Assembly (NCBI RefSeq): GCF_004010195.1
Contig: NC_057749.1
Span: forward strand, 8,903,787-8,967,786
Source of the DNA: Chiloscyllium plagiosum
Taxonomy: Eukaryota
Reading direction: 5' to 3'
Length of the DNA: 64,000 nucleotides
Shown: positions 402 through 63,845 of the stretch, one piece after another
How the letters are laid out: each line of letters opens with the position of its first letter
Numbering within the stretch: the first letter of the stretch is position 1
Notes under the pieces: model-generated
Told to the model about the DNA's origin: nothing
The model's input: the letters and a program-made list of their open reading frames with translations, nothing else
Database searches by the model: none
Position numbers and translations under genes: made by a program

Positions 402-1141
402 TCAGCGAAGATGTTCTCCAAGTCTGGGGCACCCCCGCCTGAAGCAGACACAGTGAGGTGGAATATTGCAACGTTAAATTTGTAAGAGTTTGAGTAATAT
501 CTCCCAGCTTTGCTGAGCCCAAGGATCTGATGTGAAATGAATATGAGGGTGCCATGCCCTTATTTGGCAAAAATTCACAACTTGCCTCGATAAGGGGAAG
601 TGGAAACGCTGCATTGGTACAGAAGTGAGTTTTCACAGAGGTTCAGCTTATGAGACTTTGTTAGGACAGAAAACAGGAAGTTCAGTCTTGTCTTCCCAGC
701 ACACGGACAGAGTACATGGCGCAACAGGTCCATGCCTGGTTTCATCGCACATTTTTAGAGAAGAGATCCAAATGCGCAAAATCTGTCTTGAGGCGACACT
801 TCACTTCAGGATTCTTATAATGATCGATTCATCAGAGAGCTGGTTGAGAGTTTCATACATCGCCACATACATTCACACACACATAAAACATACACTGACA
901 GGCATGCACGCACATGGACATTTATAAATATACAAGCAGGCCAGCTCTATATGTACACAAGTGTACGCATGTACATTAGTATGTGTGTATATTTAGTCCA
1001 ACAGGCTTATTTGGAAGCTCTAGCTTTCGGAGCACTGCTCCTTCATCAGCTACCTGAGAGAGTGGCCCCCCAGTCCTCTGGGACGATGGTGACTTCACAG
1101 TCAAAGCATCCACTGAGAGTCCTCAGTGTCACTTTGCTATT

Positions 1142-1508: not shown

Positions 1509-1957
1509 TGGTGTTCTTCACAGTTCAGCCTTCTTCGGAGAGTGGATATGAGAGTGTGGTGCTGGAAAAGCACAGCAGGTCAGACAGCATCCGAGGAGGA
1601 GAGAATCAACATCTCGGGCATAAGCCCTTCATCAGGACCAGGGCTCCAATCTCCAGCATCTGCAGTCCTCATTTTCTCCCTGTGTGTATATTTATAAATA
1701 TATTACACACACCTATGCACGGACACGCATCCACTCACACACACATACGTATTTGATACACATGAGGAAACATCAGTAGTAAGTAATGATGCTCGTTCGA
1801 AGATCCAGGGCAGGTAGATGGGCCAAATAGCCTCCTTCTGTGTGCTGCGTGATTCCATGACATGCACACACACAAAGGGATTCATCCACTCATGTATACA
1901 ATGAGAAAAGCAACGATTATAATTGTAAAAGAGGCACAGAGAGGTTGTGAATAGTGG

Positions 1958-2371: not shown

Positions 2372-5300
2372 GTGAATAGTGGAGGCAACGTGGGTTAAAG
2401 TCAGGTGTGAACTGAAAACAGAAGCAGAAGAAACCGGTCAGTATCCTGAGGCAGGAACTGTGGTGCAACTCTCTCCCCTCAGAATGGTGCCAGTGAACCA
2501 GCATCCCTCTCCCTGACACTCTCACATCCACTCTCTGAAGAAGGCTGAACTGTGAGGAACAACAACAATAGCAGAGTGACATTGAGGACTCCCAGTGGAT
2601 GCTTTGACTGTGAAGTTACCATTGTCCTAGAGGACTGGGGGGGCTACCCTCTCAGGTAGCTGATGAAGGAGCAGCACTCTGAAAGCTAGTGCCTCCAAAT
2701 AAATCTGTTGGACTGCAACCTGGTGTTGTGTGATTTTTAACTTTGTCCACCCAAGTCCACAACTTTAGAGAGGGAGAGAGAGACAGACGACTGATGATGC
2801 TTTTACCTGAGGGTAAAAGTTGAAATGAAAATTCTTCATGGTAACATCAGCTGCGACGGGAATTGAATCCACACAAACCAACCGTCCAGCCGACTGAGTT
2901 AACTGACCCCTAACTCTGGCTATACTGTGCCAAGGGGCAGAGTGCCAATGTAAGGGAGAAAGATATCTTTGGAAGTCTCATTGCTCTCTTGTTTTAGAAG
3001 CCAGGTTTGCTTGAAGTTCAAGCCTGTCTTTATCGGTACCTTCACTGGTAAGGTTTGTCACTGTTATCTCTGATTTAATTACATCCAATCAGTACCTAAT
3101 TATTGAGTTTCTTTGTGCACCATAGAGCAATACAGCACGGTAAAGAAACATCTTATCTTTGTTGGTGACACTGTTTACACTGCATTAGAACATTACGGGT
3201 TTCAGGCCCAGGGTCCATGACTTGCCTGGCCAATCGAGTTACCTCAACCAGTAACCCCTATAAGAAAAAGACATTCGCTGACTTGAGTCTGGGCGATTTG
3301 CAGGGCAACTCTGGTTAGGTGACTGCTGGGAAATCTCATCATGTGACATCCTTCCTCCACACTTCTCTACCCCCCCAACACTCACTATTGGGCACTCAGT
3401 TTGGTGCGTTGGATTTGTACGGCCAATCTAAAAGTGACCGAACACTTGGATGATGCATACAATTGGGTGAAGCATCTCTGTCAGTCAAACTGCCTTTGAA
3501 ACTCATTAAAGGGACAGAAGGAGGCCATTGAACCCATTGAGATTATGCTGACTCTCTGCAGAGTCACCGAGTCAGTCCCATTGCCCCTATAGTATTTCAA
3601 GCTTCTTCTCTTGATCAATCATCCCATTCTCTTTTGAAATCCCTAAAAATCTCATTTAACCTCTCCACTTCTGTCTAACTTCTGAACAAAAGTAAATGAT
3701 TAAAAAAGGGAACACAGTTTTGTTCTATTGCCCAATGATTTTTCTCCTGCGTCTCTCCCAGCAGTTTCTTGGTTTTCATTTTCTGGGTAACTGTGGGTGG
3801 TTGATGACACTCAGTGCCTGAACTGGCGGCCACCCCCACTTCGAGGTAGTTCAGTTCTCAGAATTTTTTTAAGTGGAAGCTTTTCATTCGAGAAAACACA
3901 TTTGAGATGTGAAAATGTTGTGTGTGAGCAAGTCAACTTTTTGTTTTCGGTGCTGGAAATGCGGCTTCTGTGGTTTGCTTCATTGTGATATTTACACTAT
4001 TTCTTACTGCCCGTGTCCTTAATGACCTAATGTGACTGCCACTTCATTTCAGAAGTTTCAAGGAAGTTCTCCTGTGGTTGGAAGTCAATACAGTACCGCG
4101 CACTGATAACAACACTGAAAGACAGTGAAATCTTCAGCCTGGAATAAGGGGCGCTAAGACTAGGATCTGTGGTCCCATGATCAATGAGTCAAGCAACTAT
4201 GGAGATTTTGGGGACCTCAAATCTTGACATTTTATGTATTTCCTTCACTGTGTTTGAAAGACATGCAAAGTCACGGATTTCTGTCTTGCACCCATTAGAG
4301 CTGAAACCCAAGTATTTCAAGGGACTGGGGGTTCAACTGTGGTCGGCATGGAAACCTTAATTAACTGGTTAAACTGAAACCAGACCAGTCAACTCTGATT
4401 AGTCAGGGCATTTCCGTTGGGATTGGGAGTTTCCACATTGCTTTGTCCAGGTGGGCTTGATGCTACAGGGTTGGAATTAGATCTGCAATGTTTTGTGTTA
4501 AATAGCCCAGAGAATGCAGGGAGTGTGGCTTAGCTACTCAACTGTCAGAGGCATCGCCGATGAGCCAACATGTGCGTGTCCAACATTGCATCCCAAATAT
4601 CGCTGCAAACTTTCTTCATGTGCGTACAATGATTCAGTTTAAAAGATATTTGGATGGATACATGAAGAGGAAAGGTTTGGAGGCATATGGGTCAGGAGCA
4701 GGCAGGTGGAAGTAGTTTACTTTGGGATTGTGTTCGGCATGGACTGAAGGGTGCGTTTCCGTGCTATATGAAACAATGTGTCAGGCAATACCCTTTTCGA
4801 TGCTGACTGATGTTTTCAAACTACAACCTGAATACTTGAGCACACAACCCAGGCTGGTGTGGTATTGAGCAAAATGTGCACAGTTGGAAATGTCACCTTC
4901 TGCACAAGGTGTTAAACCGAGGCCCAGTCTGTCCTAGAAAGATCGAAAACAGGAGCAGGAGGAGGCCATTCGGCCCAACCAGCCTGCTCTCCATCCAACT
5001 CTGTTCCCGCTTTCTCCCCATGCTCTTTGATCCCTTTAGTCCGAAAGAACTAGACCTAACTCCTTCTCAAAAACATTGTATGTTTTGGCCTCAGCTGCTT
5101 TCTGTATTACACACCAAACCCCCAAGGTTAAAGAAGAGTCAGCTGGTCTCCCTAGTATTCTGAGCACTATTTTTCGTTTAACCACTTTGATTTGATTTGA
5201 TTTGATTATTATCAGATGAAGAGATGGAGTGAAAAGGATTATTTTGCATGCTATCCAGGCAAATTATGCCTTGTATAAGTACATCACAGTAATAGAGAAT

Positions 5301-9072: not shown

Positions 9073-10065
9073 TCATGTCTCACAAAACTTGATTGAGTTT
9101 TTTGAAGAAGTAACAAAGAAGATTGATGAGGGCAGAGCAGTAGATGTGATCCATATGGACTTCAGTAAGGCATTCGACAAGGTTCCCCATGGGAGACTGA
9201 TTAGCAAGATTAGATCTCATGGAATACAGGGAGAACTAGCCATTTGGATACAGAACTGGCTGAAAGGTAGAAGACAGAGGGTGGTGATGGAGGGTTGTTT
9301 TTCAGACTGGAGGCCTGTGACCAGTGGAGTGCCAGAAGGATCGGTGCTGGGCCCTCTACNNNNNNNNNNNNNNNNNNNNNNNNNNNNNNNNNNNNNNNNN
9401 NNNNNNNNNNNNNNNNNNNNNNNNNNNNNNNNNNNNNNNNNNNNNNNNNNNNNNNNNNNNNNNNNNNNNNNNNNNNNNNNNNNNNNNNNNNNNNNNNNNN
9501 NNNNNNNNNNNNNNNNNNNNNNNNNNNNNNNNNNNNNNNNNNNNNNNNNNNNNNNNNNNNNNNNNNNNNNNNNNNNNNNNNNNNNNNNNNNNNNNNNNNN
9601 NNNNNNNNNNNNNNNNNNNNNNNNNNNNNNNNNNNNNNNNNNNNNNNNNNNNNNNNNNNNNNNNNNNNNNNNNNNNNNNNNNNNNNNNNNNNNNNNNNNN
9701 NNNNNNNNNNNNNNNNNNNNNNNNNNNNNNNNNNNNNNNNNNNNNNNNTTCCCTGGGGTTGGGGAGTCTAGAACTAGAGGGCATAGGTTTAGGGTGAGAG
9801 GGGAAAGATATAAAAGAGACCTAAGAAGCAACTTTTTCACACAGAGGGTGGTACGTGTATGGAATGAGCTGCCAGAGGATGTGGTGGAGGCTGGTACAAT
9901 TGCAACATTTAAGAGGCGTTTGGATGGCTATATGAATAGGAAGGGTTTGGAGGGATATGGGCCGGGTGCTGGCAGGTGGGATGAGATTGGGTTGGGATAT
10001 CTGGTCGGCATGGACGGGTTGGACCGAAGGGTCTGTTTCCATGCTGTACATCTCTATGACTCTAC
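9073..10065 (+). mobile_element. Young CR1/HER1 LINE, RT to 3' end, spanning a gap
   Basis: NLIEFFEEVT...DFSKAFDKVPH...SGVPEGSVLGP RT motifs before the gap, ORF2 tail after it. Confidence 0.92.
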
Positions 10066-11200: not shown

Positions 11201-12204
11201 TAAGTTTAACAACATGCTCTGAAGTGGGAATTGAGAGTGCTACTCTGACTTCACTGGAACAGCTCCAAAAGATTAACATCTTCAACCCATCCACATTATT
11301 TAGCATTTATTCTGCACTAATAAAACCCTATCGATTTCAACCTCCCTTATTGTAACAGGGCATGGATTTATAGGCGGCATAGGTCAAAGTTCAAGGCACC
11401 AGGCTGTTTAACTGAGGACAGACTGTCATTTGTAGTTTTGGAGGATGCAGAGCTGGTGTTGTCAGCATCACTGCACAGTTATCTGCACGATAAACCGGTG
11501 TTAATATTTAATCAGAGGCAGCATTTATCTGACAGTATTGTGGAGCTCCTTTGGGCTCACTCACCTGTGTAACAACAGTCAGATTGGTTGCTTCAAGTGA
11601 AAATTCTTGAGAAAGCATTTCAGCACAGGAAGGGCTCTATCTGTACAAATGTTTGTTCAGTTCCGACACTGGAACACGGTGGAAAGTTAGGTCAGTCGAT
11701 CTGAAATCCAGCCCCGATTTACCGAGCTCAGCTCTATTTAAACAGCTGCTCAGTGACAATAGCCTGCGCTTATTCAACAGCATGAACAGAGTAACTCAGT
11801 CTTTCCCAAACTGTTTCCCACTGTCACCCCTCTGCCAAACTTGAAAATTGCTGAGACTCAATCAGTGAAAGGTAGAGGAATGGCAATGTGGGGTTGAGAG
11901 TCATAGAGGTCTACAGCCCAGACAAACGTTCTTCAGCCCATTACTGATCAACAACAATGCCCTCTCTGTTCTAACCCCATTCCCCAGCACCTAGCCCATA
12001 GCCTTGTATACCTTGGCATCTAAAGCACCTACCTAAATATTCCTGAATGTTTCTGCCTCTCCCACCCTTACAGGAAGCGAGTTCCAGATTCCCACCACCC
12101 TCTGGGGGGAAAAGTTCTTCCTCACCTCCCCCTCTAAACCCCCAGCCCCTTCCCTTAAATCTATGTCCCTCGGGCATTGATCCCTCAGTCAAGGGGAAAA
12201 GGTG

Positions 12205-12710
12205 CACAGCATTTCAACTCCCCCTCCCACTCCACCGAGGATATGCAGGTCATTGGACTCATCCACCGCCAAACCACAACAACCCGACGGTCGGAGGAGG
12301 AGCGTCTTATCTTCCGACTGGGAACCCTCCAACCGCAGGGGATGAACTTGGACTTCACCAGTTTCTTCATCCCCCCTCCCCCCACCTTGTCTCAGCCGGA
12401 TCCCTCCAGCCCGGCACCGCCTTCCTGACCTGCAGTCTTCTTCTTGACCTCTCCGCCTCCATCCTACTCCGACCTATCACCCTCACCTTGACCTCTTTCC
12501 ACCTATCACATTTCCAACGCCCCTCCTCCAAGTCCCTCCTCCCTACCTTTTATCTTCTCCTGCTGAACACTCTCTGCTCATTCCTGAAGAAGGGCCTGTG
12601 CCCGAAACGTCGAATCTCCTGTTCCCTGGATGCTGCCTGACCTGCTGTGCTGTTCCAGCAATAAAGTTTCAACTTTGATCTCCAGCATCTGCAGACCTCA
12701 CTTTCTCTCC
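12205..12710 (+). mobile_element. Penelope-like element 3' end: GIY-YIG endonuclease C-terminus plus pseudo-LTR
   Basis: AQHFNSPSHS...RRSEEERLIFRLGTLQPQGMNLDF matches the PLE endonuclease tail pattern (HF..H...R...E...I..L.T..P.G.N), followed by a C-rich tract and the repeat end seen in many other copies here. Confidence 0.85.
12580..12615 (+). ncRNA. Minimal type I hammerhead ribozyme motif in PLE pseudo-LTR
   Basis: ATTC-CTGAAGA-A-GGGC-ctgt-GCCC-GAAA-CGTC-GAAT: stem I ATTC/GAAT, CUGANGA box, stem II, GAAA box, GUC cleavage triplet, palindromic ACGT stem III. Confidence 0.8.
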
Positions 12711-15700
12711 GAAAAGGTTGATCCTGTCTGCCGCTCATACATTTTGTACGTCTCAATCATTTTATACCTGTCAGTCTCCTCTGCCCTAAGGAAACAACCC
12801 CAGTATGTCCAATCTCGCTTCATGACTGAAACTCTCCAGCGCAGGCAACACCCTGGTAGGTCTCCCTCTCACATCCCAAGGATAATGTGGATTGCGAAAA
12901 CAGTGCACACACCACCCACCCCCTTCCCGTGACCACCTTCTGCCCCCAAGTGTAACAGAGCCTGAGGTGGCTCCATCGGTCTGTACAGCCACCTACACAC
13001 TCAACGCTGAGAGTGGGTGAGTGTCATCCCCGTGATGATGATAATGACAATGTGAGAGGGGAGAGGAGGAGTGGGACGAACAGAACTCCATAACCGCCTC
13101 TGAACTCAAACTTCCAGCTCGCGACAGCCACCTGGGCACCCTCCCCCCACGGGGGCGGCGTGAGCAGGGTGGAATTCCAGGCCATCCCCTCCATTCTGAA
13201 CCCCTCCTCCTGCCCGCCTGAGCATTTATAGGAAACGGCCTCATTGGGTGCCCCCTGAAAGGTGGAGGCAAGGGGCTGAAAAATTGCAGTCAGGGCAGAG
13301 GGAAGCTCATCTGGACAGACATACAGCTTCCCCCCAACACCCGTCACCCAACAAACCCGCAACAATAGAGGCAACATTCAGCTACAGTTCTAATGGAAGA
13401 TACCCCATCAGCCCCCCGAACCAGATTAGGGTTTCTACATTCACTGTGTATCGCAGGAGCCAAACTGTCCTTGCTCCTTGCAGGCGGGGTTTTGTGCTTG
13501 ACCTGCTGCTGTGACCAGTAGCAGTAGGCCGAAATCTCGCCAGTAGGCCGAAATCTCCCCAACGATCGCCTTCTGTCCTCAGCTATCAGTGGATTGATTA
13601 GGCAGCCTCAAGGGGCACTTATTGATGACGTTAACAAACAATGGAAATTCTAACCTTCACATCAAACTGTCAGACCAGCTGATTAATTGCGAGCTGAACT
13701 TGTTGCACAGTATAATAGCCCTTTCAGCTACTGCCTTGCGATGAGCATTTGGCCATTAAATAGCATAATGTAAAAATTAACAGCAAAAAAATGTCTGCGC
13801 AAAAAAGATGTGGCCTTAAATCATACAGTATAACAAATCGCATTTACATAGAGCCTTTGATATAGAAACATACAGCACAGAAACGGACCCTATGGTCCAA
13901 CCAGTCCATGCCGACCATAATCCCAAACTAAACCAGCCCCACCTGCCTGCACGTGGCCCATATCCCTCCAAACCTCTCTTATTCATGTATTATCCAAATG
14001 TCTTTTAAACGTTGTTTCTGTACCCACATCCATTAATTCCTCAGGATGTTCATTCCAGATACAAACCATCCTCTGTGTAAATATGTTGCCCCTTACGTCT
14101 TTTTAAAATCTTTCTCCTCTCGCCTTAAAAACAAACTTGACACTGAGCCGCATATGTAGTCCCCAAAGAAGCAGGTTTTTAGTATGTTGTCGGTCAGGTT
14201 GCGCTGCTCAGGAATATTTACGCAGTCTCCTGAGGTAAAGGATGGATTAACGCTATTTAAGAAGCATTGTCCCATAGCTTTATGTTACCGTGAGGCTGCA
14301 GAACATGCGTATGACATTGCATCACTTCCTGTGATGGTGTATACTGTGTCATATTTGCATATCATACAATCAGACCTAAGGCATATCCTAGGGAACATCT
14401 TAAAGAAGGACTATGAGATGAAATGGCTCAGAGGTTTGGTGGTGGGGGGGGGTGAGGGGTGTGTGGTGGTAGGCATGTGAGTGACTTCATCATCATTTGT
14501 TCATGAGATGTGATGTCACTGGCTAGACTACCATTCATGGCCCAGAGAGGGGTTAACTGTCACTAATATTCACAGGTAGAGTCACAGATTCCCTTCTCTA
14601 AAGGACACTATTGAACCAGATGGGCGTTGGTTGGCCTCAGTTGGTTGGATGGTGTTGCAAAGTGATGTTTAGTAGAGTGGGTTCAATTCCCACACTGGCT
14701 GGAGTTACGTCTCCTTCTCAACCTCCCCCTCACCTGAGGCATGGTGACCCTCGGATTAAGCCACCACCAGTTGTCTCTCTCTCTAATGAGGGAGCAGATC
14801 TAGTAAGACTTTGGTGGCTTCACCTTTTTTGTTAGTGAACCAGATGGATTTTTGTTTGCAACAGTTGATGTTGGTTACATGGTTGCCCCGAGACTAGCTT
14901 TCCATCCCAGATTTTTATTGAATTCAAGTGTCCGCGTTTGCCATGTCTGGGATTCGAACCCACATCCTCAGAAGATTAGCCTGAGTTCTGGGTGACTAGT
15001 CCAGTAGCGTGACCGCTACGCTAGCACCTCCCCCTGGCTGAATTCCAGAGTTGAGGGTATGGTCACCAATGCTGCCTCAGGATGCTCAGAGGCCTGACTG
15101 GAGGGAAAGGAAGATCCCAGAAGGTTGTGGCGATGCAGTAAGTTACAGAAAGAGGGAAAGGGTCAAGACCCTGGAAGGAATTGAAAAGAAGAATGCAAAA
15201 GTTGAGGCATTGCTTAAATGCAAATAAGGCACGGGGCACACGAGGATGGCGAACAGGACATGGTATGAGTTCAATAGGAAGGAACATAGGAGCAGGCATA
15301 GGCCACTCAGCCCTTCAAGCCTGCTGTGCTGTTCTAAATCATGGCTGATCATTACCATCATGTTACCACACTATCCCCATCTCCCTCGATGACATTTTTG
15401 TCACTGCCCCATTAGAGGCTGTGCCCTCCTGCTGCCAGTCACCTCCTTGACTCTCTACCCCTTTGACATTTACCTATCCTGATGTGTCAGAAAGTGTTGG
15501 AGAAACTCAGCAGGTCTGCGGAGAGAAAGAAGAACAGGGCTTCGGTTGGACGAAGAGCCAGGCTGGACTCGAAACATTAACTCTTGTTTCTCTCCCCACA
15601 GATGCTGCCAGAACTACTGAGTTTCACCAGCAATTTCTGTTTGTGTTTCCAATTTCCAGGGTCTGCAGTATTTTGCCTCTTCATGCGGTTTGGAGTCAAA

Positions 15701-15715
15701 TTGCGTCGTTGACCA

Positions 15716-17185
15716 AAAACAGAAATTGCTGGAAAAGCTCAGCAGGTCTGGCAGCAGCTGGTGGAGAGAAATCAGAGTTAGCGTTCCAGGACGAGTGACC
15801 CTTCCTCAGGACAGACTCTGACGTGACACCACCCACACCCTGCACCTTCTCCATGACTTTCGTTTGCCCGCGCCCCCATAACACTTCACCTTCACCATGG
15901 ACATCCAGTTCCTGCGCACATCCATCGCCATGGCAAAGGCCTCCAAGCTCTCGGTTTATTCCTCTCTCGCCGACCAAACCTGTACCCTTCCACCGACACA
16001 CTCATGCAATTGGCAGAACTGGTCCTCACCCTCAACAATTTCTCCTTCACATCCTCCCACTTCCTTCAGACCAAAGGAGTAGCAATGGGCACCCGCATGG
16101 CCCCCAGCTATGCCTGTCTCTTTGTCGGGTACGTGGAATAGTCCACCTTCCACAGCTTCACCTGCACCATTCCCCACCTTTTCCTCTGCTACATTAATGA
16201 CTGTATTGGTGCCACGTCGTGCTCTCACAAGGAGGTTGAACAGTTCATTGACTTCACGAACACCTTCCATCCTGACCTCAAGTTCACCTGGACCACCTTG
16301 GGTACCTCCCTCCCCTTCCTGGACTTCTCCATCTCCATCTCTGAGACCAACTTCACTCAGATATTTCCCCTCCCATGTGATCAACAATGCCTCGAGTGCA
16401 CTTCCTCCACTTTTGCACCCCACCCCTCCAACCGCAACAAGGACAGAACCCCCCAGCCCACCCCCCAGTCCTCATCTTCCACCCCGTCATTCTCTCTTTA
16501 CAGCACATCATCCTCTGCCACATCTGCCACCTTCAGTCAGACCCCACCACCAGAGATATATTTCCCTATCTGCATTCTGCAGAGATCATTCCCTCCCCGA
16601 CTCCCTTGTTAGGTACATGCCAACAACCCCCCCCCCTCCCCCACAGACNNNNNNNNNNNNNNNNNNNNNNNNNNNNNNNNNNNNNNNNNNNNNNNNNNNN
16701 NNNNNNNNNNNNNNNNNNNNNNNNNNNNNNNNNNNNNNNNNNNNNNNNNNNNNNNNNNNNNNNNNNNNNNNNNNNNNNNNNNNNNNNNNNNNNNNNNNNN
16801 NNNNNNNNNNNNNNNNNNNNNNNNNNNNNNNNNNNNNNNNNNNNNNNNNNNNNNNNNNNNNNNNNNNNNNNNNNNNNNNNNNNNNNNNNNNNNNNNNNNN
16901 NNNNNNNNNNNNNNNNNNNNNNNNNNNNNNNNNNNNNNNNNNNNNNNNNNNNNNNNNNNNNNNNNNNNNNNNNNNNNNNNNNNNNNNNNNNNNNNNNNNN
17001 TTAACCCAACCCCACCCCCATCTATTTATCTTTCAGCCCCCTTCCCCCTCCATATATTCGATGAAGGGCTTATGCCTGAAATATCAATTCTCCTTCTCCT
17101 TGGATGCTGCCTGACCTGCTGTGCTTTTCCAGCACCACACATTTCAACTCTGACTCTCCAGCATCTGTAGTCCTTACTGTCTTTC
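15716..17185 (+). mobile_element. Decayed Penelope-like element: inverted pLTR, RT remnant, gap, pLTR
   Basis: About 15990-16345 reads LAELVLTLNNFSF...QTKGVAMGTRMAPSYACLF...YINDC...HPDLKFT...LPFLD (PLE RT motifs GxAMG, YIDD-like, FLD) with an in-frame TAG; pLTR-type sequence follows the gap at about 17055-17185. Confidence 0.85.
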
Positions 17186-17204: not shown

Positions 17205-17868
17205 GATGTAAGTTTGCTCACTGAGCTAGAAGGTTTATTTTCAGACGTTTCGTCACCATACTAAGTAATGTCATCAGTGAGCCTCTGGTGAAGCATTGAT
17301 AGTATGGCCCACTTTTTATTTGTGTGCTTAGGTTTCCTTGGGTTGGTGATGTCATTTCCTGTGGTAATGATTTCCTGTTCTTTTTCTCAGGGGGTGGTAA
17401 ATTGGATCCAGTCAATGTGTTTGTTGATAGAGTTCCAGTTGGAATGCCATGTTTCTAGGATTTCTCCCATGTGTCTCCTTTTGGCTTGTCCTAGGATGGA
17501 TGTGTTGTCCCAGTTGAACTGTTGACACCACTTTGACTGGGACAATTCATCCATCCGAGGACAAGCCAAATAGAGACATGTGCGAGAATTCCTAGAAGCA
17601 TGGCACTCCAACCGGACCTCTATCAACAAACACATTGACTTGGACCCTGTTTACCACCCCCTGAGAAAAAGAACAGGAAATGATATCACCAACACAAAGA
17701 AACCTAAATGCATAAATAGAAAGTAGGCCATACCACCAGTGCTTCACCGGAGGCTCACTGAAGATGTTACCCATTATGGTGACGAAACATCTGAAAATGA
17801 ACCTTGCAGCTCAGCGAGCAAATTTACATCCAGAACCTCAACCTGAGCTACAAATCTTCTCAAAACTC
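17205..17868. mobile_element. Foldback Penelope-like element (two inverted 3' ends)
   Basis: Arms about 17205-17518 and 17532-17830 are reverse complements; each encodes FDWDN.SI.GQAK..H.REFLEAWHS...SINKHIDLDP, a PLE endonuclease tail. A further fragment lies at about 63728-63845. Confidence 0.8.
17755..17794 (+). ncRNA. Decayed hammerhead motif, fourth PLE family (inverted twin at 17241-17280)
   Basis: TCA-CTGAAGA-T-GTTACC-cattat-GGTGAC-GAAA-CATC-TGA; the minus copy retains GAAACGTC. Confidence 0.6.
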
Positions 17869-26695: not shown

Positions 26696-28193
26696 AATGT
26701 AAGACAGCCATATTGTGGATACAGTGATGGATCCCCTTGTGCAAACAGTTTTATTGCATTCCACAAAATGAGAGAAAGGGCCCTGTGTGGAAATATGATC
26801 CTGCTAATCGCACACAGATTGCGATCTCCATTGTCAGAGGCTGGACCTCCTCCTAAAGCCAAATTGGAATTCACTGCATTTCCAGTTGTTGTGAGCAGGA
26901 CAAGAGGCCTATCCAAGCTTTACACTGAAGGATCAGAGTTTAAAACGCAGACAGTATGAACCAGCACAGAGCAGGGTGTGTCATGTTGACACCTGTTTCG
27001 TGGGGCCTCTATCATCCATTGGCTTTTCTTTTGGAAGCGAACAGAGCAACAGTGTGTCCAAAAATAGTCAGCAGCAACTGCACAGTTTGTGTCCCCGGGA
27101 TTTATGTCTTTTGACCAGCTGAGGAAGACTAATGCTCTCATCCTTGTTTTAAAATCCTTCCGTGACTGCCTTCCACCCCCACCCCCATCTCTCCCAATCC
27201 AGTCCCTCCCTGTCTCTGTAACGTCCTCAAGTCCCATAACACTTCCAGTTCTGGCCTCGTGTGAATCCTTGGTTTCCATAGAATCCTGACAGTGTGGAAT
27301 CAGACCAATTGGCCCAACAGGTCCACGCTGACCCTCCTAAGAGCATCCAACCCAGACCCATCCCCCTACCCCGTACTTCCCATGGCTAACGCACCTAACC
27401 TACACCTCCCTGGACACTATGGGCAATTTAGTATGGCCAAATCACCTAACCTGTACATCTTTGAACTGTGGGAGGAAACCGAAGCATCCGGAGGAAACCC
27501 ACACAGACACGGGGAGAATGTGCAAACTCCACACAGTCAGTCGCCTATGGCTGGAATCGAACCCAAGGCCCTGTGAGACAGCAGTGCTAACCACTGAGCC
27601 ATTCTGCTACCCATCAAGTGCCTGGGCCCTAAGTTGAGGAGTTCCATCATCTGCCTCACCATCCCCCTTTCTATTTCTCTCTCCGTCCTTCTTTAAACAA
27701 TTCTCACAGCTACTTTCTTTAACCATTTTGTTCAATGGTTCTAAGATCTCTGTCGTGACAAATATTGGCTGGCTATATATTTCTACAACATGCCTTGGAA
27801 TCTTTTAATATGTTAAAGGGCGCTATTTGGTCATTAAGAGGAAACATTGCTTCCTGTCTATGCCCCTCATCATTTTATTAACATGTGGTTGGCATGTGAT
27901 TGCCCTCTGGGCATGAAGGGATGAGTAATAAATGCTGACCTGGCCAGTGATGTCCTCATCCACTGAAAGAATGAGAAAAAGAATTCTGATAGTTAATATC
28001 TATCCAAAGTTCAGGAGCGTAGAGAAACACACCTCAAAACTGTGGTAAGCCCTTTTCAGCACTTCAATTTTCCTCCTTCCTGTTATCAAACGTGTCACTT
28101 CCTAACAGAGAGACGGGCCTTTCTGTTCAAAATGGTAAGCGTTGAGGAGACAGAATTCCTGTTGGAAACCCTTCTGCCTCTTGTATCTTGCAG

Positions 28194-28377
28194 GAACGCC
28201 AGTGAACCGGATTCCCATCATGGCGAAGCAGGTGTTGGATTTGTACATGTTGTATAAGCTCGTCACAGAGAAGGGCGGACTGGTGGAAGTTATCAATAAG
28301 AAGATTTGGCGGGAAATCACCAAAGGCCTCAACTTACCTACCTCAATCACCAGTGCAGCCTTTACACTCAGGACCCA
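28194..28377 (+). CDS. ARID3B: ARID3B internal exon, ARID DNA-binding domain (G)TPVNRIPIMAKQVLDLYMLYKLVTEKGGLVEVINKKIWREITKGLNLPTSITSAAFTLRT(Q)
   Basis: Acceptor tcttgcag ends 28193 and donor gtaagt starts 28378; 184 nt, phase 1 to 2. Translation is the ARID3-family ARID core. Confidence 0.96.
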
Positions 28378-28889
28378 GTAAGTAGCAGCCACTGTGTTTG
28401 GCCATAACCACGTCAGGAACGATCACCTCTCAGGGGATTTTCGGCTCCGTGTCAGATGAACTCCCCTCTGTCACCTCCCAACCAAAAGACACAGTCACCA
28501 GCCACATCTACCAAAGGGTGGGAAGGGCATAGATATAAGAAGCGCAGGATTGCATTAGCTCTATGTTCACTTTGTTAAACCTTCATCATCTCGGGTCAAA
28601 GTCTTTAAAATTTCTGCCCCCCTCCTCCTAAAGATATGGAATTCTTGAATGGATTTATGGATTCCAATTGTATCACATGTTCCAGGTTTAATTCTTGACA
28701 TCTCTGTTGATCAGGTATCTGTGTAGAATTTATACAGTATAGTTGTCTGTTACTGTCTCTGATCACCTGAAGTTCTGTTTCTGATGTAGTTTCACCCTCC
28801 TCATGTTTGTGTTCGACACAAAAATGTCTAATAGCATTAAAAAGATAAATGTTAATGTTGCACCTGAACACACAGAGCATTCTTAATAA

Positions 28890-33902: not shown

Positions 33903-36199
33903 TATCAACATGTAAGGTGTTGTTATTAGATGGGCAATAGTGAATCTTTACAGAAATAGTTTTATAGAAATGTTTATGTTTCCCCCTGAATTTGGTCATT
34001 TGGGGAGTCAAAGAATGTTTTAGGTCCTCTTTGAGTTGAGTTGACGATTTGGATGGATCACATCTGGTGAACTTGTGAGAGATCACATTACCCTTCAGTG
34101 GTCCCTGTAGCGTGGATCTTTGACTGGGCCTCTATTGATTCGATGAGACAGAATTAGATCCGAAGATGTGCAGGTCAAGTGAATTGGCCATGCTAAATTA
34201 CCCATCGTGTTCAGGGATGTGTACTTTAGGTTCATTAGTCAGGGGTAAATGTAGAGTAATAGGGGAATGGGTTTGAGTGGGATACTCTTCAGAGAGTCAG
34301 TATAAACTTGTTGGGCTGAAGGGTCTGTTTCCACACTGTAGGAATTCTAAGCAAATTCTTCTAAGCAAATCTTTAGCAACCGTGTTATCCTCCAATCCTC
34401 TCTCTGAGTCATGAGGAGAGAGAATCTCCTCCATCTTAGTCCAACTTGGAATTAACAATGATTACAGAAAGATAGAATCTGCATTTACATAACGCCTTTC
34501 ACAATTTCAGATTGTACTTTACAGCTAATGACACATCCTTTAAGATGTAGCGACTGATGCAAGCTAAGGAAAATAGCAATTTAATTACAGCTAGCTCCTC
34601 CACAACCTCTTTTTTTGATCCCAACTGAGGACATGCCATTCTTTGAAATAGGGGCATGGAATTATTTATGTCCACTCGGAGATGCGGAGATGTACAGCAC
34701 GGAAACAGATCCTTTGGTCCAACTCGTCCATGCCGAGCAGATATCTGAAATTAATCTAGTCCCATTTGCCAGCACTTGGCCCATATCCCTCTTAAACCCT
34801 TTTTATTCATATACTCATCCAGATGCTTTTTAAATATTGTAATTGTACCAGCCTCCATCACTTCCTCTGGCAGCTCATTTCATACATGCATCACCCTCTG
34901 AGTGAAAATGTTGCCCCTCAGGTCCCTTTTAAGTTTTTTCCCCTCTCACCTTAAACCTATGCCCTCTAGTTCTGGGCACCCTCTCCCCAGGGAAAAACCT
35001 TGCCTATATCGCCTATCCATGCCCCTCATGTTATTATAAACCTCTATAAAGTCTCCCCTCAGCCTCCTTGAGGACTCAGTTTAACATCTCACCTGAAAGA
35101 TGGTGCCTCTGATATTTAGGCATTCCTTCATTTCAGCACTGAGACATCAACTGGAACTTTGCACTCAGGTCTCTGCCATGGAACCTGATCTCGTAACCTT
35201 AAAATTAAAAGGCAAGTGCCAGACTAGTGCTGGCGAACAGCAATGAAGTTGTTGCTACAAAACCAGGTGAAACTAGGAGAGGAGGGCATGGCCTCAAAAT
35301 TAGGGGGAGTAGATTTAGGACTGAATTGAGAAGGAACTTCTTCACCCAGAGGGTTGTGAATCTGTGGAATTCCCTTGCCCAGTGAAGTAGTCGACGCTAC
35401 TTCAGTAAATCTTTTTAAAGCTAAGGTAGATTTTGTTTTGAACAGTAAAGGAGTTAAGGGTTACGGTGAGAGGGCGGGTAGGTGGAGCTGAGTCCATGAA
35501 AAGATCAGCCATGAGTTTATTGAATGGCGGAGGAAGCAGGAGGGGGCAGATGGCCTACTCCTGCTCCTGTTTCTCATGTTCTTATGTAGGCATGTAGCTA
35601 CTGGCTTGCAGGCTGTTGGAATGTGATCAGTGCTAAAGCTCTCTGGTCCTGTCCTGTCCAGATGCAGCATTGTGACCACTCAATGTCAGTCATTCCAGTC
35701 ATCATTGCCTGCTGTTCCCTTTAGGTGTGCGACTCTACTGATGGTTCATGGAACCTGCTGCCCTCAGCGATCTGCAGGACCTTTATCTCTATCGGAATAA
35801 AATGCATGTTTTTCACAAAAGAGCATGAAGGAATGTATCTTCTGCTGTGGCAATGTTTGGAATGTGTCCATTGACCCTTTGAGGTGAAAGGGCTGGTATA
35901 TTGTTCATCAGTGTCCCTGGAGGTTTGTGGTGTGTCGAGTGTGTGGTGCTGGAAAAGCACAGTAGGTCAGGCAGCAACCGAGGAGTAGGAGAATTGATGT
36001 TTCAGGCATAAGCCTTCATGAGGGCTTCATCGGATGCTGCCTGACCTGCTGTGCTTTTCCAGCACCGTACTCTCAACTCTGATCTCCAGTGTCTGCAGTC
36101 CTCACTTCCACCCAGTTTGTGCTACGGTTTGCACAGGTCTGGCTACATTTTCACGATCAATAAGATCGAGGTGAAATAAGAGCAACAGAGGGTCACGGT

Positions 36200-37799: not shown

Positions 37800-39160
37800 G
37801 TCACAAAGTCATAGGCACAGAAACCGACCCTTATGCCCAACCAGTCTGTGACGAACATAATCCCGGAATAAACAAGTCCTTCCTACCTGCCTGCTCCGAG
37901 CCCATATCCTTCCAAACCGTTTTCCTTATGTACTTATCCAAATGTCTTCTAAACATTGTACCCACGTCCGCCACTTAGAGTCATAGAGATGTACAGCATG
38001 GAAACAGACCCTTCGGTCCAACCTGTCCATGCCGACCAGATATCCCAACCCAATCTAGTCCCACCTGCCAGCACCCGGCCCATATCCCTCCAAACCCTTC
38101 CTATTCATATACCCATCAAAATGCCTCTTAAAGTTGCAATTGTACCAGCCTCCACCACTTCCTCTGACAGCTCATTCCATACACGTACCACCCTCTGCGT
38201 GAAAATGTTGCCCCTTAGGTCTCTTTTATATCTTTCCCTTCTCATCCTAAACCTATGCCCTCTAGTTCNNNNNNNNNNNNNNNNNNNNNNNNNNNNNNNN
38301 NNNNNNNNNNNNNNNNNNNNNNNNNNNNNNNNNNNNNNNAACTCCTGTACTCAATACTCTGACCAATAAAGGAAAGCATAACAAATGCCTTCTTCACTAT
38401 CCTATCCACCTGCGACTCCATTTTCAGGGAGCTACGAACCTGCACTCCAAGGTCTCCTTGTTCAGCAACACTCCCTAGGACCTTACCATTAAGTCCTGCT
38501 AAGATTTGCTTTCCCAAAGTGCAGCACCTTGCATTTACCTGAATTAAACTCCATCTGTCACTTCTCAGCCCATTGGCCCATCTGGTCCAGATCCTGTTGT
38601 GATCTGAGGTAAGCCTCTTCACTGTCCACTACACTTCCAATTTTGGTGTCATCTGCAAACTTACTAACTGTACCTCTTATGCTCGCATCCAAATCATTTT
38701 TGTAAATGACAAAAAGTAGAGGACCCAGCACTGATCCTTGTGGCACTCCACTGGTCACAGGCCTCCAGTCTGAAAAACAACCTACCACCACCACCCTCTG
38801 TATTTTACCTTTGAGCCAGTTCTCATTCCACACACAAACTACTCTCTGTGTAAAAGAGTGGCCCCACCTGTTTTTTATAAATCTCTCTCCTCTCACCTTA
38901 AAAATATGCCCCCTAGTCTTGAAATTCCCCATCCTACCACTAATGTGATTAACTCTACCAATAGCCCACATTATTTTATAAGCTTCTATAAGGTCACCTC
39001 TCAACTTGCTATGTTTCAGTGTAAAAGTTCTCTCTCCATCCAGCCTTTCTTTATTACGCAAACCTTCTGTACCTGGTAATGTCCTGGTCAATTTCCTCTG
39101 AACCCTGTCCAGCTTAATAATATCCTTCCTATAAGTGGGTGACCAGAACTGGACACCTTG
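37800..39160 (-). mobile_element. Nested CR1 LINEs (younger copy about 37976-38821 inside an older one)
   Basis: SGVPQGSVLGPLLF...KFADDTK in the inner copy; the older 3' end continues on both sides. Confidence 0.88.
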
Positions 39161-44809: not shown

Positions 44810-45806
44810 TCCTGACCCCACTCCACTCCCAAACCCCCAAATTTCCATTCCCACCCCTGACCTTCCACACCCCCACCCCCNNNNNNNNNNNNNNNNNNNN
44901 NNNNNNNNNNNNNNNNNNNNNNNNNNNNNNNNNNNNNNNNNNNNNNNNNNNNNNNNNNNNNNNNNNNNNNNNNNNNNNNNNNNNNNNNNNNNNNNNNNNN
45001 NNNNNNNNNNNNNNNNNNNNNNNNNNNNNNNNNNNNNNNNNNNNNNNNNNNNNNNNNNNNNNNNNNNNNNNNNNNNNNNNNNNNNNNNNNNNNNNNNNNN
45101 NNNNNNNNNNNNNNNNNNNNNNNNNNNNNNNNNNNNNNNNNNNNNNNNNNNNNNNNNNNNNNNNNNNNNNNNNNNNNNNNNNNNNNNNNNNNNNNNNNNN
45201 NNNNNNNNNNNNNNNNNNNNNNNNNNNNNNNNNNNNNNNNNNNNNNNNNNNNNNNNNNNNNNNNNNNNNNNNNNNNNNNNNNNNNNNNNNNNNNNNNNNN
45301 NNNNNNNNNNNNNNNNNNNNNNNNNNNNNNNNNNNNNNNNNNNNNNNNNNNNNNNNNNNNNNNNNNNNNNNNNNNNNNNNNNNNNNNNNNNNNNNNNNNN
45401 NNNNNNNNNNNNNNNNNNNNNNNNNNNNNNNNNNNNNNNNNNNNNNNNNNNNNNNNNNNNNNNNNNNNNNNNNNNNNNNNNNNNNNNNNNNNNNNNNNNN
45501 NNNNNNNNNNNNNNNNNNNNNNNNNNNNNNNNNNNNNNNNNNNNNNNNNNNNNNNNNNNNNNNNNNNNNNNNNNNNNNNNNNNNNNNNNNNNNNNNNNNN
45601 NNNNNNNNNNNNNNNNNNNNNNNNNNNNNNNNNNNNNNNNNNNNNNNNNNNGACCTTCCATCCCCACCCTCCCATGACCTTCCATCCCCACCCTCCCATG
45701 ACCTTCCACCCCCACCCTCCCATGACCTTCCATCTCCACCTGCCGACCTTCCACTCCTCCACCTGACCTTATATCCCCCAATCCCCCGACCTTCCACTCC
45801 CACCCC
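44810..45806 (+). repeat. C-rich 24-bp repeat GACCTTCCATCCCCACCCTCCCAT spanning a gap
   Basis: Units visible on both sides of gap 44881-45651. Confidence 0.8.
44881..45651. other. Assembly gap (others: 9360-9748, 16649-17000, 38269-38339)
   Basis: Runs of N, all flanked by repeat sequence on both sides. Confidence 1.
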
Positions 45807-60800: not shown

Positions 60801-61504
60801 CACTTTTAAACATATCATTTTGTGGCTGGCACTGCAGCTCAGTGGTCGGTGGTGCTGTCCCACAGTATTGGGGACCTGGGTTTGATTCCAGCCTCGGGCA
60901 ACTATCTGTGTCAAGTTTACACACCCTTCTGTGGGTTCCTCTAGATGCTCCTGTTTCTCCCAGAATCCAGAGACGTGAAGGTTAGGTGGATTGGAGGGCT
61001 TCTGCCTGAAACGTTGACTCTCTTGCTTCACGGATGCTGCTTGACCTGCTGTGTTTTCCCAGCACCACACCCTTCGACATGGGAAATTGTCAGTTGTGTC
61101 CAGGGATGTGTAGGTTGCAGCACTACAGGTGTATGGTAGTGGAATGGGTCTGGGTGGGATGCTTTTCAGAGGGTCAATGTGGACTTGACGGGCTGAATGG
61201 CTTATTCCCACACCATTGGGATTCTATGAACAAGCACTGGCTTCCCAACGATGCCTACATTTCATGAAAGAAAGGAATTAACAAAATCTACCTGTCTCTT
61301 CCCATTGTAATCCCATTCTAACATTCAAAATCTTAAAAATACTATTAAAAGGTGCAAGATGGTCCGTTTTCTGGGAGATCATTCTGAGGATTTGCCACAC
61401 TTTGAGAAGAGTGCTTGGTTTAGCTGAGCTGGATGAACAATCAGGATAGGGATATGAATGGGAAAGCTTCAGAGGGGTATGGGCCAAATGCTGGCAAATG
61501 ATTT

Positions 61505-61812: not shown

Positions 61813-63845
61813 ATTGCCCATGGGAGTAGGTCTGATTGGAATATCTGGTTGGCATGGATGAGTTGCACCGAAGGCTCTGTTTCCATGCTGTATGACTCTG
61901 TGACAACTGACTACAATGCACAGTGATGCCACAGTGTGAGTTCAATTCCTGCACCAGCTGTTTGTTCCATCTCTCATGGGCATCAGTCGTTGGGCCCAGC
62001 ATTTATTGCCTGTCCCTACTTGCCCCACGAGAAGGTGATGGTGAGCTGCCTGATTGAACGGCTGCAGTCCCTGTGCTGAAATTAGACCCACAATGTCTTT
62101 AGGTAGGCCATTCCAGGATCTTGACCCAGCGACACTGAAGCTGAAGGATTCTCCTGGCAGGTCGCAGAATCCCTACATGGGGACAGAGGTCATTCAGCCC
62201 ATCAAGTCTGAACTGATCCTCTGAAGAGCATTCTACCTTGACCCAGCATCCCAAACCCTATCCCCCCAACACTGCATTTCCCATGGCTAATCCACTTAGC
62301 CGACACGTCCCTGGACACTACTGTCAATTTAGCACAGTCAACGCACCTAACCTGCACATCTTCGGACTCTCTCCTCACCTGAGGTGTGCTGACCCTCAGG
62401 TTAAAACACCACCAGTATTCACTGTCTAATGAGCGAGCAGACCTATTGTTTGGTAAGACTATGGTGACTTTACCTTTCCTGCTAATAAATGTTTCTAATT
62501 TCACTTTTACCACTTTTAAGTCCCCTCACATTGACACTTGAAAACGAATACTATCTGCACAAGGCGGTTCACTGCCACCATCTCAGAGTGAAGCAAAATG
62601 GGCAAGGAAGATCCTGGTGTCCTTACAGAGTGGAAACAGGCCATTCGGCCCAACAAGTCCACACCAACTCTCTGAAGAGTATCACACCCAGACTCGTCCC
62701 TCTCTACCCTGCATTTCCCATGGTTAACCTACACACCCCTGGATGCTATGGGCAATTTAGCATGGCAGGTCCATCTAACATACACATCTTTGGACTGTGG
62801 GAAGAAACCAGAGCACCCCCACCGGGAGAATGTGTAAACTCCACACAGACAGTCACCCGAGATTGGAATTAAACCTGGGCCCCTGGTGCTGTGAGGCAGC
62901 AATGCTAACCACTGAGCTATCGTGCTGGGCAAAAGGTGCATCTTTGTCTGTGTCGTTAGAACAAATGTAAATAAAATGTGCTCATTTTCTTCTGCAAGTT
63001 CAGTCCCGGACACATGGAGCCAGAACCAATGTGCTCTTGCTGCCTCCCAGTGGTTGATTTCAGGAACAGCAACTTGGAGGCAGCAGAGTTGTCAGGTGCA
63101 TACAGTACATAGGAACTGGTGGCAACAAAAGAAGCCTTTCAGCTCCTCTCATTCCTAACGAAGGGTGTTTCCCCGAAACGTCAACTGTCCTGCTCCTCAG
63201 ATGTTGCCTGGCCTCCTGTGCTTTTCCAGTGCCGCACTCTCGGCTCCGATCTTCAACATCTGCAGTCCCCACTTTCTCCCCTTACCTGTGGCAGCTCTTG
63301 GAAGAAGCTGGAGAAATTCGAGTCAGTCTAGGGGAAAGAGAAAAATAATTTGGTAAGGCTGTTTTCCGGTGGCCAATGAGCCAGGAAGATGAGATTTAAT
63401 CCCCGGGATTGTGCTCAACAATTATCAAATGAACTCACTTGCAAACATGAGTTAGGAAGGGCAGGCTTGCATTCTGCCTTTAGGTTAAATGATGCGGGAC
63501 TCTTTCTTTTAATTCATTCACAGGACATGCGAATCGCTGGCTGGGTCAGCATTTATTGCCCATCCCTCGTCCTTAAGAAGGTGATGATAAGCTGCCTCTT
63601 TGAGTCCTTCCAGTCCATTTGGAGTGGCTCAATGGTTAGTACTGCTGCCTCACAGCACCAGGGAGCCAGGTTTAGTTCCAGCCTCGGGTGACTGTCTGTG
63701 TGGAGTTTGCATGTTCTCCCTGTTCTGGATGTAAATTTGCTCACTGAGGCGGAAGGTTTGTTTTCAGATGTTTCGTGACCATATTAGGTAACATCTCCAG
63801 TGAGCCTCTGGACAATGTACTGGTGGCATGGCCTGATTTCTATTT

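What the first reader, a model, noticed from the sequence alone, without database searches (positions are those of the whole stretch)
12580..12615. Near-perfect minimal hammerhead ribozyme, sense to the ARID3B pre-mRNA
Seen: ATTC CTGAAGA A GGGC ctgt GCCC GAAA CGTC GAAT has both catalytic boxes, stems I and II and a GUC triplet (predicted cut after 12611). It sits downstream of a PLE GIY-YIG tail. Established: Penelope-like retroelements carry minimal type I hammerheads with a tiny palindromic stem III (here ACGT), thought to work as dimers, and an extra nucleotide after CUGANGA is a tolerated variant. Inference: if 1-28193 is ARID3B intron, the nascent transcript contains a potentially self-cleaving RNA.
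Basis: partly seen in the sequence, partly recalled or inferred. Interest (0 to 1): 0.75.

Follow-up and report, generated by a model that had tools for sequence, protein, structure and literature searches.

The report
Penelope-type hammerhead in ARID3 intron
The hammerhead ribozyme motif is real, but it is one of well over a hundred thousand copies scattered through this shark-like genome by a Penelope-like jumping gene, and a lone copy like this one is unlikely to cut the ARID3 transcript.

Summary
The 36-nt motif is at 12580-12615 (+) exactly as described and is not chance: 0 pattern matches in 100 shuffles.

It is not special to this locus. The exact 36-mer occurs 8,512 times in the 3.56-Gb genome. 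The core pattern occurs 118,554 times, against 32 for a reversed control.

It lies in a roughly 507-bp, 5'-truncated Penelope-like element (PLE) fragment at about 12204-12710. The fragment is flanked by a probable 8-bp target duplication and is 96.8-99.8% identical to 11 other copies. Every feature published for metazoan PLE minimal hammerheads is present, including the "extra" A, which is a conserved trait of that class (PMC4209133).

The copy is sense-strand inside a ~75-kb intron of an ARID3 gene, named 3A-like or 3B-like by its sources.

Self-cleavage of the pre-mRNA is unsupported:
- A monomer cannot form helix III.
- No compatible intact partner lies in the window.
- Published monomers are inactive (PMC4209133; PMC11167929).
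- 324 family RNA reads show no ends at the cut site.

Rfam models do not detect the motif. The scan had already noted this family elsewhere in the same genome.

Verdict: a correct catch of a known kind, of low interest.

The parts
12196..12203 (.). Left copy of the probable target-site duplication, GAAAAGGT
   Evidence: this 8-mer is shared with 12711-12718. It abuts the point (12204) where reads from other copies stop matching the flank (loose ends at 12204). An 8-mer match between two ~100-bp stretches is not rare by chance, so this is probable, not certain.
12204..12710 (+). 5'-truncated Penelope-like element insertion, about 507 bp, of a young subfamily
   Evidence: read and contig depth is confined to 12187-12719 and is near zero in the flanks; 96.8-99.8% identity to 11 other long copies; the encoded peptide is 100% identical in all 150 scored genomic matches.
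12204..12428 (+). C-terminal remnant of the PLE ORF (second half of the GIY-YIG endonuclease region through the stop codon)
   Evidence: open frame 12159-12428. Pfam finds nothing in the fragment itself. In longer copies the same frame carries GIY-YIG (L053; 22.4 bits against a cut-off of 22.6) and RVT_1 with a YIDD motif (L044; 23 bits against a cut-off of 29.6).
12429..12579 (+). Non-coding stretch between the ORF stop and the hammerhead (pseudo-LTR region)
   Evidence: the 30 nt before the motif are conserved in 8 of 29 sampled copies, the 'long' ones.
12580..12615 (+). Minimal type I hammerhead motif; predicted cleavage after C12611
   Evidence: It is identical to 8,512 genomic sites.
12616..12672 (+). 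Proximal 3' region shared by all copies; contains AATAAA at 12661-12666. The short-form element ends at about 12671-12674.
   Evidence: 16 of 29 copies end here; loose ends at 12671-12674, some of them poly(A) in the RNA run X19.
12673..12710 (+). Optional ~35-nt 'tail' extension (long-form 3' end)
   Evidence: 13 of 29 copies carry it; loose ends at 12707. This matches the PLE 'tail' signature explained by two internal RT start sites (PMC11167929).
12711..12718 (.). Right copy of the probable target-site duplication, GAAAAGGT
28172..28384 (+). ARID-domain exon of the host ARID3 gene; the next exon downstream of the intron that holds the insertion
   Evidence: PF01388, E 1.7e-13. C40:8931958-8932170, aa 256-326 of P0004.

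Best explanation
The motif is the minimal hammerhead carried in the 3'-terminal (pseudo-LTR) region of a Penelope-like retrotransposon.

This copy arrived as a 5'-truncated, roughly 507-bp cDNA that integrated into a ~75-kb intron of an ARID3 gene, in the sense orientation. It belongs to a young and extremely abundant family.

In the element's own life cycle (inferred from published work, not shown here), the hammerhead works only when two copies pair. Their ACGU palindromes form a 4-bp helix III, and each core cuts the other strand's GUC. In the one PLE studied biochemically, cleavage needed the element's protein. Reverse transcription starts at internal sites about 60 and 95 nt downstream of the motif, which is why genomic copies end there.

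At this locus the motif is a passenger. As a lone monomer in the pre-mRNA it cannot form helix III, and most likely it does nothing.
For: Copy number:
- The core pattern occurs 118,554 times, against 32 in the control.
- The exact 36-mer occurs 8,512 times.

Element anatomy:
- Depth and loose ends bound the repeat at 12204 and 12707.
- A GAAAAGGT duplication lies at both edges.
- Identity to 11 other long copies is 96.8-99.8%.
- The upstream frame continues in longer copies into GIY-YIG and RT segments.
- There are two discrete 3' ends, 13 long and 16 short among 29 copies, as in the published PLE 'tail' (PMC11167929, main text read).

Class features (PMC4209133, Results and Discussion read):
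- Two further families in this genome keep the same plan with different helices. One reads CUGAUGA-A-GGAGC...GCUCC-GAAA-GC-UA, with an AGCU palindrome, and has 41,100 copies against 3 in the control. The other has a 6-bp helix II and a pyrimidine bulge.

Inactivity of a lone copy:
- ACGU has no loop, so a monomer has no helix III (read from the sequence).
- No second intact motif with an ACGU palindrome lies on the + strand of the window.
- In 121-441-nt contexts helix I is predicted with p of 0.05 or less, though helix II keeps p about 0.9.
- The double-hammerhead fold scores -14.3 kcal/mol, against -15.4 for two monomers and -19.5 for an alternative duplex.
- Published monomers are inactive, dimers are weak (PMC4209133), and the anole hammerhead is protein-dependent (PMC11167929).

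Host gene: ARID3 exons lie on the + strand on both sides of the motif.
Against: - The motif is fully intact and identical to its subfamily's commonest form, so nothing in the sequence itself rules out catalysis.
- The family is young and is transcribed: 324 reads in RNA run X19 lie on the element. Partner RNAs, and possibly the element's protein, may therefore exist in cells.
- The RNA evidence is weak. It comes from a poly(A) single-cell library of which about 2% was read. All reads come from the repeat and none from the unique flanks, so this locus was not observed at all.
- Both Pfam domain hits fall just below their curated cut-offs.
- No Rfam hammerhead model matches.
- Nearest-neighbour energies ignore tertiary contacts.
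- No cleavage assay was possible.
Confidence: 0.88

Rival explanations
1. The intronic hammerhead does cleave the nascent ARID3 pre-mRNA. It would do so by pairing in trans with transcripts of other family copies, or with help from the PLE protein, and so lower ARID3 output.
For: - The core is intact.
- The motif is in the sense orientation in the intron.
- Family RNA is present in run X19.
- Thousands of identical partners exist.
- The anole PLE protein switches its hammerhead on in vitro (PMC11167929).
Against: - There is no partner in cis.
- The dimer fold is not favoured energetically.
- Min-HHR dimers cleave poorly even as tandem constructs (PMC4209133).
- No molecule ends at 12611/12612 among 324 family reads, and none were seen in anole RNA-seq (PMC11167929).
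- At about one motif per 30 kb, sense intronic copies must be commonplace. That is hard to square with efficient cleavage.
Confidence: 0.05
2. The insertion matters to the host through its AATAAA signal (12661-12666), not its ribozyme, by causing premature polyadenylation of some ARID3 transcripts.
For: RNA run X19 shows loose ends at 12671 and 12674 that run into poly(A): 10 and 29 reads, with consensus agreement 0.58-0.63. So copies of this subfamily are polyadenylated there somewhere in the genome. Here the signal is sense to the gene.
Against: No read links the poly(A) ends to this locus, and the flanks have zero depth in X19. From general knowledge, not tested here, intronic poly(A) signals deep in long introns are usually suppressed.
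Confidence: 0.05
3. It is a domesticated, host-conserved intronic ribozyme, like the amniote intronic hammerheads in RECK and CTCL.
For: Only its intronic, sense-strand position supports this.
Against: - It is a young insertion, up to 99.8% identical to other copies.
- Its element boundaries and probable target duplication are still visible.
- It has no helix III hairpin and matches no Rfam type I model.
Confidence: 0.01
4. It is a chance match to a loose descriptor.
For: None beyond the shortness of the motif.
Against: Controls, and the motif's fixed position within a repeated element.
Confidence: 0.01

Closest known systems
Minimal hammerheads (min-HHRs) in the pseudo-LTRs of metazoan Penelope-like elements (Cervera & de la Pena 2014, PMC4209133)
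   Same: Shared features: both catalytic boxes; an unpaired nucleotide between A9 and 10.1; G10.1-C11.1; a palindromic 15.2/16.2 pair with no helix III loop; a short helix I (4 bp); location after the RT/GIY-YIG ORF; genome-wide dispersal mostly as single motifs on truncated copies; and head-to-head pairs on opposite strands.
   Different: Helix II is only 4 bp, whereas Schistosoma families have 7-8 bp. Abundance is far higher than the published counts of about 4,000 in coelacanth and about 9,000 in Xenopus: here 118,554 strict matches for one family plus 41,100 for a second. I found no paper on shark PLE hammerheads.
Poseidon PLE of Anolis carolinensis, PAc (Frangieh et al. 2024, PMC11167929)
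   Same: The hammerhead lies about 60-100 nt upstream of the point where genomic copies end. There are two alternative 3' ends about 35 nt apart (the 'tail'). Several short copies have target duplications that begin with ATT, which fits the reported ATT cleavage preference.
   Different: In PAc the ORF starts inside the hammerhead. Here that could not be checked, because longer copies read N in part. No biochemistry exists for this family.
Animal non-LTR retrozymes (Cervera & de la Pena 2020, PMC7229834, abstract only; Li et al. 2026 preprint 10.64898/2026.07.22.740005, abstract and first part of Results read)
   Same: They carry type I hammerheads related to PLE pseudo-LTRs, and monomeric derivatives are scattered through genomes.
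   Different: Retrozymes are tandem repeats that give circular RNAs. This copy is single and attached to PLE coding sequence.
Rfam Hammerhead type I and conserved intronic amniote hammerheads (RECK, CTCL; mentioned in PMC6155905, passages read)
   Same: The same catalytic core and an intronic, sense-strand position.
   Different: Those have a helix III hairpin and loop-loop tertiary contacts, and they are conserved at orthologous sites. This one has none of these and is not detected by the models.

Membership tests
PLE minimal hammerhead (min-HHR) | CUGANGA and GAAA boxes, with cleavage-site U16.1 and H17 | tested here: met
   CUGAAGA at 12584-90, GAAA at 12604-07, U12610, C12611.
PLE minimal hammerhead (min-HHR) | [quoted passage not shown] | tested here: met
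   A12591. The same position is occupied in all three families seen in this genome.
PLE minimal hammerhead (min-HHR) | G10.1-C11.1 pair closing helix II | tested here: met
   G12592 pairs with C12603. Helix II is predicted with p about 0.9 in all contexts.
PLE minimal hammerhead (min-HHR) | Palindromic 15.2/16.2 with no helix III loop, so that helix III forms only between two copies | tested here: met
   ACGU at 12607-10. A second family has AGCU, which is also self-complementary.
PLE minimal hammerhead (min-HHR) | Consensus families within a genome that differ by compensatory changes | tested here: met
   Helix II differs between families: GGGC/GCCC, GGAGC/GCUCC, and a 6-bp helix. The palindrome differs as ACGU against AGCU. 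This was read from few family types, without a formal covariation statistic.
PLE minimal hammerhead (min-HHR) | Self-cleavage as a dimer | not testable with these tools
   Energy model only: the dimer fold scores -14.3 kcal/mol against -15.4 for two monomers.
Penelope-like element | A single ORF with a reverse transcriptase followed by a GIY-YIG endonuclease | tested here: inconclusive
   In longer copies of the same frame, RVT_1 scores E 7.4e-5 at 23 bits (cut-off 29.6) and GIY-YIG scores E 1.5e-4 at 22.4 bits (cut-off 22.6). Both are just under Pfam's thresholds. YIDD and the GIY and YIG motifs are visible in the translations. The window's own fragment gives no Pfam hit.
Penelope-like element | An optional 30-40-bp 'tail' at the 3' end of a fraction of copies | tested here: met
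   13 of 29 copies carry a ~35-nt extension and 16 end before it. Loose ends fall at 12671-74 and 12707.
Rfam Hammerhead type I (covariance models) | A match to the family model at or near its gathering score | tested here: not met
   There was no hammerhead hit at gathering scores on the window or at E up to 10 on 12300-12900.
Non-LTR retrozyme | Tandem head-to-tail repeats, each with a hammerhead | tested here: not met
   Only 3 pattern matches in 64 kb, at 12584, 63155 and 63945. None is adjacent to this copy.

The most novel reading that the evidence does not exclude
This genome carries at least 160,000 motif-complete minimal hammerheads, roughly ten times any published count that I saw. 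Many of them must sit sense-strand in introns, as this one does. If family transcripts or the element's protein allow pairing in trans, host pre-mRNAs could be cut at these sites at a low but real rate, making the family a genome-wide, ribozyme-based drag on gene expression.

A related reading concerns the very abundant ~95-130-bp units. They begin exactly at the first base of helix I and end at one of two fixed sites. They could be 'strong-stop' cDNAs, made when the reverse transcriptase starts at the 5'-proximal copy of its internal start site. That would be SINE-like amplification without a separate master gene.
Probability: 0.06. Interest if true: 0.6.

Novelty: new member of a known kind. 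Interest (0 to 1): 0.15.

Why it matters
It matters little for this locus. The result shows that a striking-looking ribozyme in a developmental gene's intron is ordinary retroelement debris.

The family-level picture has modest value:
- The copy number of PLE minimal hammerheads in a cartilaginous fish is unusually high.
- Three families keep the same architecture, which supports the dimer model.
- Discrete 5' and 3' ends fit the recently proposed internal initiation of reverse transcription.

Such a genome would be a good place to test whether intact sense-strand hammerheads are selected against in introns.

Tried and rejected
- Rfam scans found no hammerhead family, either at gathering scores on the whole window or at E up to 10 on 12300-12900. 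The only weak hit was a chance TCL6_1 match (E 0.98).
- Pfam on the window's own ORF fragment 12159-12428 gave no family, so longer copies were needed.
- A motif search for the upstream ARID3 exon inside the window found nothing. One search showed that the exon lies about 47 kb before the window start.
- Longer element copies: the large 'open frames' reported were mostly runs of withheld N. I therefore could not see a full-length ORF, or check whether the ORF starts in or just after the hammerhead. I dropped that question.
- Sequencing runs: no RNA holder was listed for the stretch.
- Run X20 laid no reads. X1 is only guessed to be RNA.
- X19 gave reads on the repeat only, so it says nothing about transcription of this locus.
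- Lunse, Weinberg & Breaker (RNA Biol, 'cleave RNA as dimers') is not held. I saw only its title, in the reference list of PMC6765202.
- De la Pena & Flores 2001, on the extra core nucleotide, was seen only as cited in PMC4209133.
- Supplementary figures of PMC4209133 were not opened. They hold the vertebrate alignments and could show a closer relative of this family.
- No statistical covariation test was run, because copies within a family are recent duplicates.

Full report
**Observation**

It parses as a type I hammerhead without a helix III hairpin:
- AUUC/GAAU forms helix I.
- CUGAAGA is the first box.
- One unpaired A follows.
- GGGC-cugu-GCCC forms helix II.
- GAAA is the second box.
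- The self-complementary ACGU supplies positions 15.1-16.1.
- C17 lies at 12611.

A 45-nt excerpt folds by minimum free energy into exactly helix I plus helix II, at -7.7 kcal/mol.

The motif is far beyond chance:
- The pattern has 0 matches in 100 shuffles of the window.
- A structure-aware descriptor finds 4 sites in the window, against 0 in the reversed sequence and a mean of 0.02 in 50 mononucleotide shuffles.

Rfam's covariance models do not see it, either at gathering scores or at E up to 10 on a 601-nt excerpt. I attribute this to the missing helix III.

**It is a repeat**

The same pattern occurs twice more in the window: an intact copy on the minus strand at 63945-63972 and a decayed copy at 63155-63182.

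In the window's own 3.56-Gb assembly:
- The pattern occurs 59,329 + 59,225 times, against 12 + 20 for the reversed pattern.
- The exact 36-mer occurs 4,252 + 4,260 times, against 0 in the control.

Three loop variants dominate: uuau, uuuu, and cugu (this copy). All carry the extra A.

**Anatomy of this copy**

Contigs and reads from four public runs pile up only between about 12187 and 12719 and drop to near zero in the flanks. Loose ends mark 12204 as the point where longer copies continue upstream, and 12671-12674 and 12707 as alternative ends. GAAAAGGT lies at 12196-12203 and again at 12711-12718. This is a probable target-site duplication, though an 8-mer alone is weak evidence.

The roughly 507-bp insertion is 96.8-99.8% identical to 11 other long copies in my sample. 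Two of the 13 alignments of at least 400 bp belong to other subfamilies, at 81.6% and 72.1%. So it is young.

Its first 225 bp are the end of an open frame. Pfam finds nothing in that fragment. The peptide is 100% identical in all 150 scored genomic matches, out of 75,289 first-look candidates. In longer copies the same frame runs upstream through a GIY-YIG segment (E 1.5e-4, 22.4 bits, cut-off 22.6) and an RT segment with YIDD (E 7.4e-5, 23 bits, cut-off 29.6). Both scores sit just under Pfam's thresholds, so the Penelope-like assignment rests on the combination of ORF order, hammerhead and tail.

**Family architecture**

I examined 29 distinct copies that carry the exact 36-mer. They came from the 30 loci, after dropping duplicates from overlapping loci and contexts with N.
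- 8 continue upstream into the conserved pre-hammerhead sequence.
- 21 do not. About 9 of these are head-to-head junctions with an inverted copy, and about 11 abut unrelated DNA at the ATTC that forms the 5' strand of helix I.
- 13 carry a ~35-nt 3' extension and 16 end before it.

Several short copies are bracketed by 11-13-bp duplications that begin with ATT.

These traits match what is published:
- Cervera and de la Pena (PMC4209133; I read the abstract, Results, Discussion and part of the Methods) describe single motifs on truncated copies and paired motifs on opposite strands.
- Frangieh et al. (PMC11167929; I read passages and the second half of the main text) describe the optional 'tail', explained by two internal reverse-transcription start sites, and an ATT cleavage preference.

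**Class membership**

Cervera and de la Pena list four features that emerged beyond their search descriptor:
- consensus families with compensatory changes;
- G10.1-C11.1;
- palindromic 15.2/16.2.

This motif meets the last three directly.

The first feature is met at genome level. A second family is present in the window at 2660-2688 (+) and 1021-1049 (-). It reads CUGAUGA-A-GGAGC...GCUCC-GAAA-GC-UA, with a different helix II and an AGCU palindrome in place of ACGU, and it has 20,614 + 20,486 copies against 3 in the control. A third family has a 6-bp helix II and a pyrimidine bulge. It is seen at 17244-17277 (-) and in locus L056.

**Host gene**

The window holds an ARID-domain exon (PF01388, E 1.7e-13) and further exons on the + strand. 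One exon is 100% identical to carpet-shark proteins that their sources name both 'ARID3A-like' and 'ARID3B-like'.

Mapping one such protein (P0004) on the assembly places exons on C40 (+) as follows:
- 8767222-8767821
- 8851036-8851119
- 8856517-8856603
- then 8931958 onward

The motif, at C40:8916366, therefore lies sense-strand in an intron of about 75 kb. Two paralogues lie on C1 and C31. Which paralogue is 'B' I did not settle. The best named hits outside cartilaginous fishes lean towards ARID3B.

**Would it cut the pre-mRNA?**

Probably not, for these reasons:
- ACGU leaves no loop, so a monomer has no helix III. This follows directly from the sequence.
- In the double-hammerhead model, a copy's GUC is cut by the partner's core. 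The window has no other intact + strand motif with a compatible palindrome. The copy at 63155 has a broken box, and the copy at 2660 has AGCU.
- In 121-441-nt contexts, helix II stays at p about 0.9 but helix I falls to p of 0.05 or less.
- The dimer fold scores -14.3 kcal/mol, no better than two monomers at -15.4 and worse than an alternative duplex at -19.5.
- In print, a single Schistosoma min-HHR showed no cleavage, and dimeric and trimeric constructs showed low activity (PMC4209133).
- The anole hammerhead cleaved only with the element's protein, was dispensable for insertion in vitro, and left no read ends in RNA-seq (PMC11167929).

That last result has little power. None of the reads touched the unique flanks, only about 2% of the run was read, and the library was a poly(A) single-cell one. 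The locus itself was not observed.

**A side observation**

This subfamily carries AATAAA at 12661-12666. RNA reads show poly(A) starting at about 12671-12674, so some copies act as polyadenylation sites. At this locus the signal is sense to ARID3. I rate an effect here as unlikely but no less plausible than ribozyme cleavage.

**Novelty**

PLE minimal hammerheads are well described in fishes, coelacanth, amphibians and reptiles (PMC4209133). PLEs are recorded in shark genomes (PMC8455134, one passage read).

I found no paper on shark PLE hammerheads:
- (hammerhead ribozyme + Penelope + shark) returned one paper, in which 'shark' refers only to the motif's shape.
- (Penelope + Chiloscyllium + transposable) returned two papers, neither about ribozymes.
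- A 2026 preprint sampled one cartilaginous fish for retrozymes (10.64898/2026.07.22.740005; abstract and first part of Results read).

The copy number here exceeds the published counts that I saw (about 4,000, about 9,000, and 14,255 retrozymes).

Earlier notes of this scan on the same genome reached the same classification. They are not independent evidence.

**Verdict**

It is a new member of a known kind, and interest at this locus is low.

Noticed in passing
window 2660-2688 (+) and 1021-1049 (-): A second minimal-hammerhead family, CUGAUGA-A-GGAGC...GCUCY-GAAA-GC-UA. It has an AGCU palindrome in place of ACGU and A17 in place of C17. There are 41,100 strict matches genome-wide, against 3 in the control. 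The + copy is also sense to the ARID3 intron.
   Followed up: partly
window 17244-17277 (-); similar sequence near 63770-63820; L056 5199-5232 (reverse-complement coordinates): A third hammerhead family, with a 6-bp helix II, a 6-nt loop and a C/U bulge after the first box. Its ending is GAAACGUC or GAAACGUA.
   Followed up: partly
window 12661-12674: AATAAA is followed about 10 nt later by poly(A)-containing loose ends in RNA run X19 (10 reads at 12671 and 29 at 12674). Copies of this subfamily serve as polyadenylation sites somewhere in the genome.
   Followed up: partly
loci L011-L040: Many short copies begin exactly at the A of ATTC, the first base of helix I, and end at one of two fixed 3' sites. 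They carry 11-13-bp target duplications that often start with ATT. This discrete 5' end suggests an RNA 5' terminus, possibly a transcription start, just before the hammerhead.
   Followed up: partly
genome-wide (listing); L001, L009, L012, L020 and others: Head-to-head inverted pairs of the motif are frequent, with start-to-start spacings of about 34-40 nt or about 246-251 nt.
   Followed up: no
window 63945-63972 (-), 63155-63182 (+), 1560-1640 (-), 17060-17140 (+), 35940-36070, 61032-61053 (+): Further copies of the same element tail lie in the window. One is intact, on the minus strand. The rest are decayed, mostly by CpG-type changes in the core. One decayed inverted pair lies at 35940-36070.
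   Followed up: partly
window 9361-9749, about 38260-38340, about 44880-45640: Runs of N lie inside repeat-rich stretches, so those parts could not be read.
   Followed up: no
G000 C1:45876001-45898079 (+) and C31:15359652-15382759 (-): Two paralogous ARID3 genes are detected with the same query protein. They would help to settle which paralogue the window holds.
   Followed up: no
window 12024-12200 and 12719-12800: The PLE fragment sits inside another interspersed repeat, so this is a nested insertion. The minus-strand frame of that repeat resembles the FFTQRVV...WN.LP tail that recurs throughout the window.
   Followed up: no
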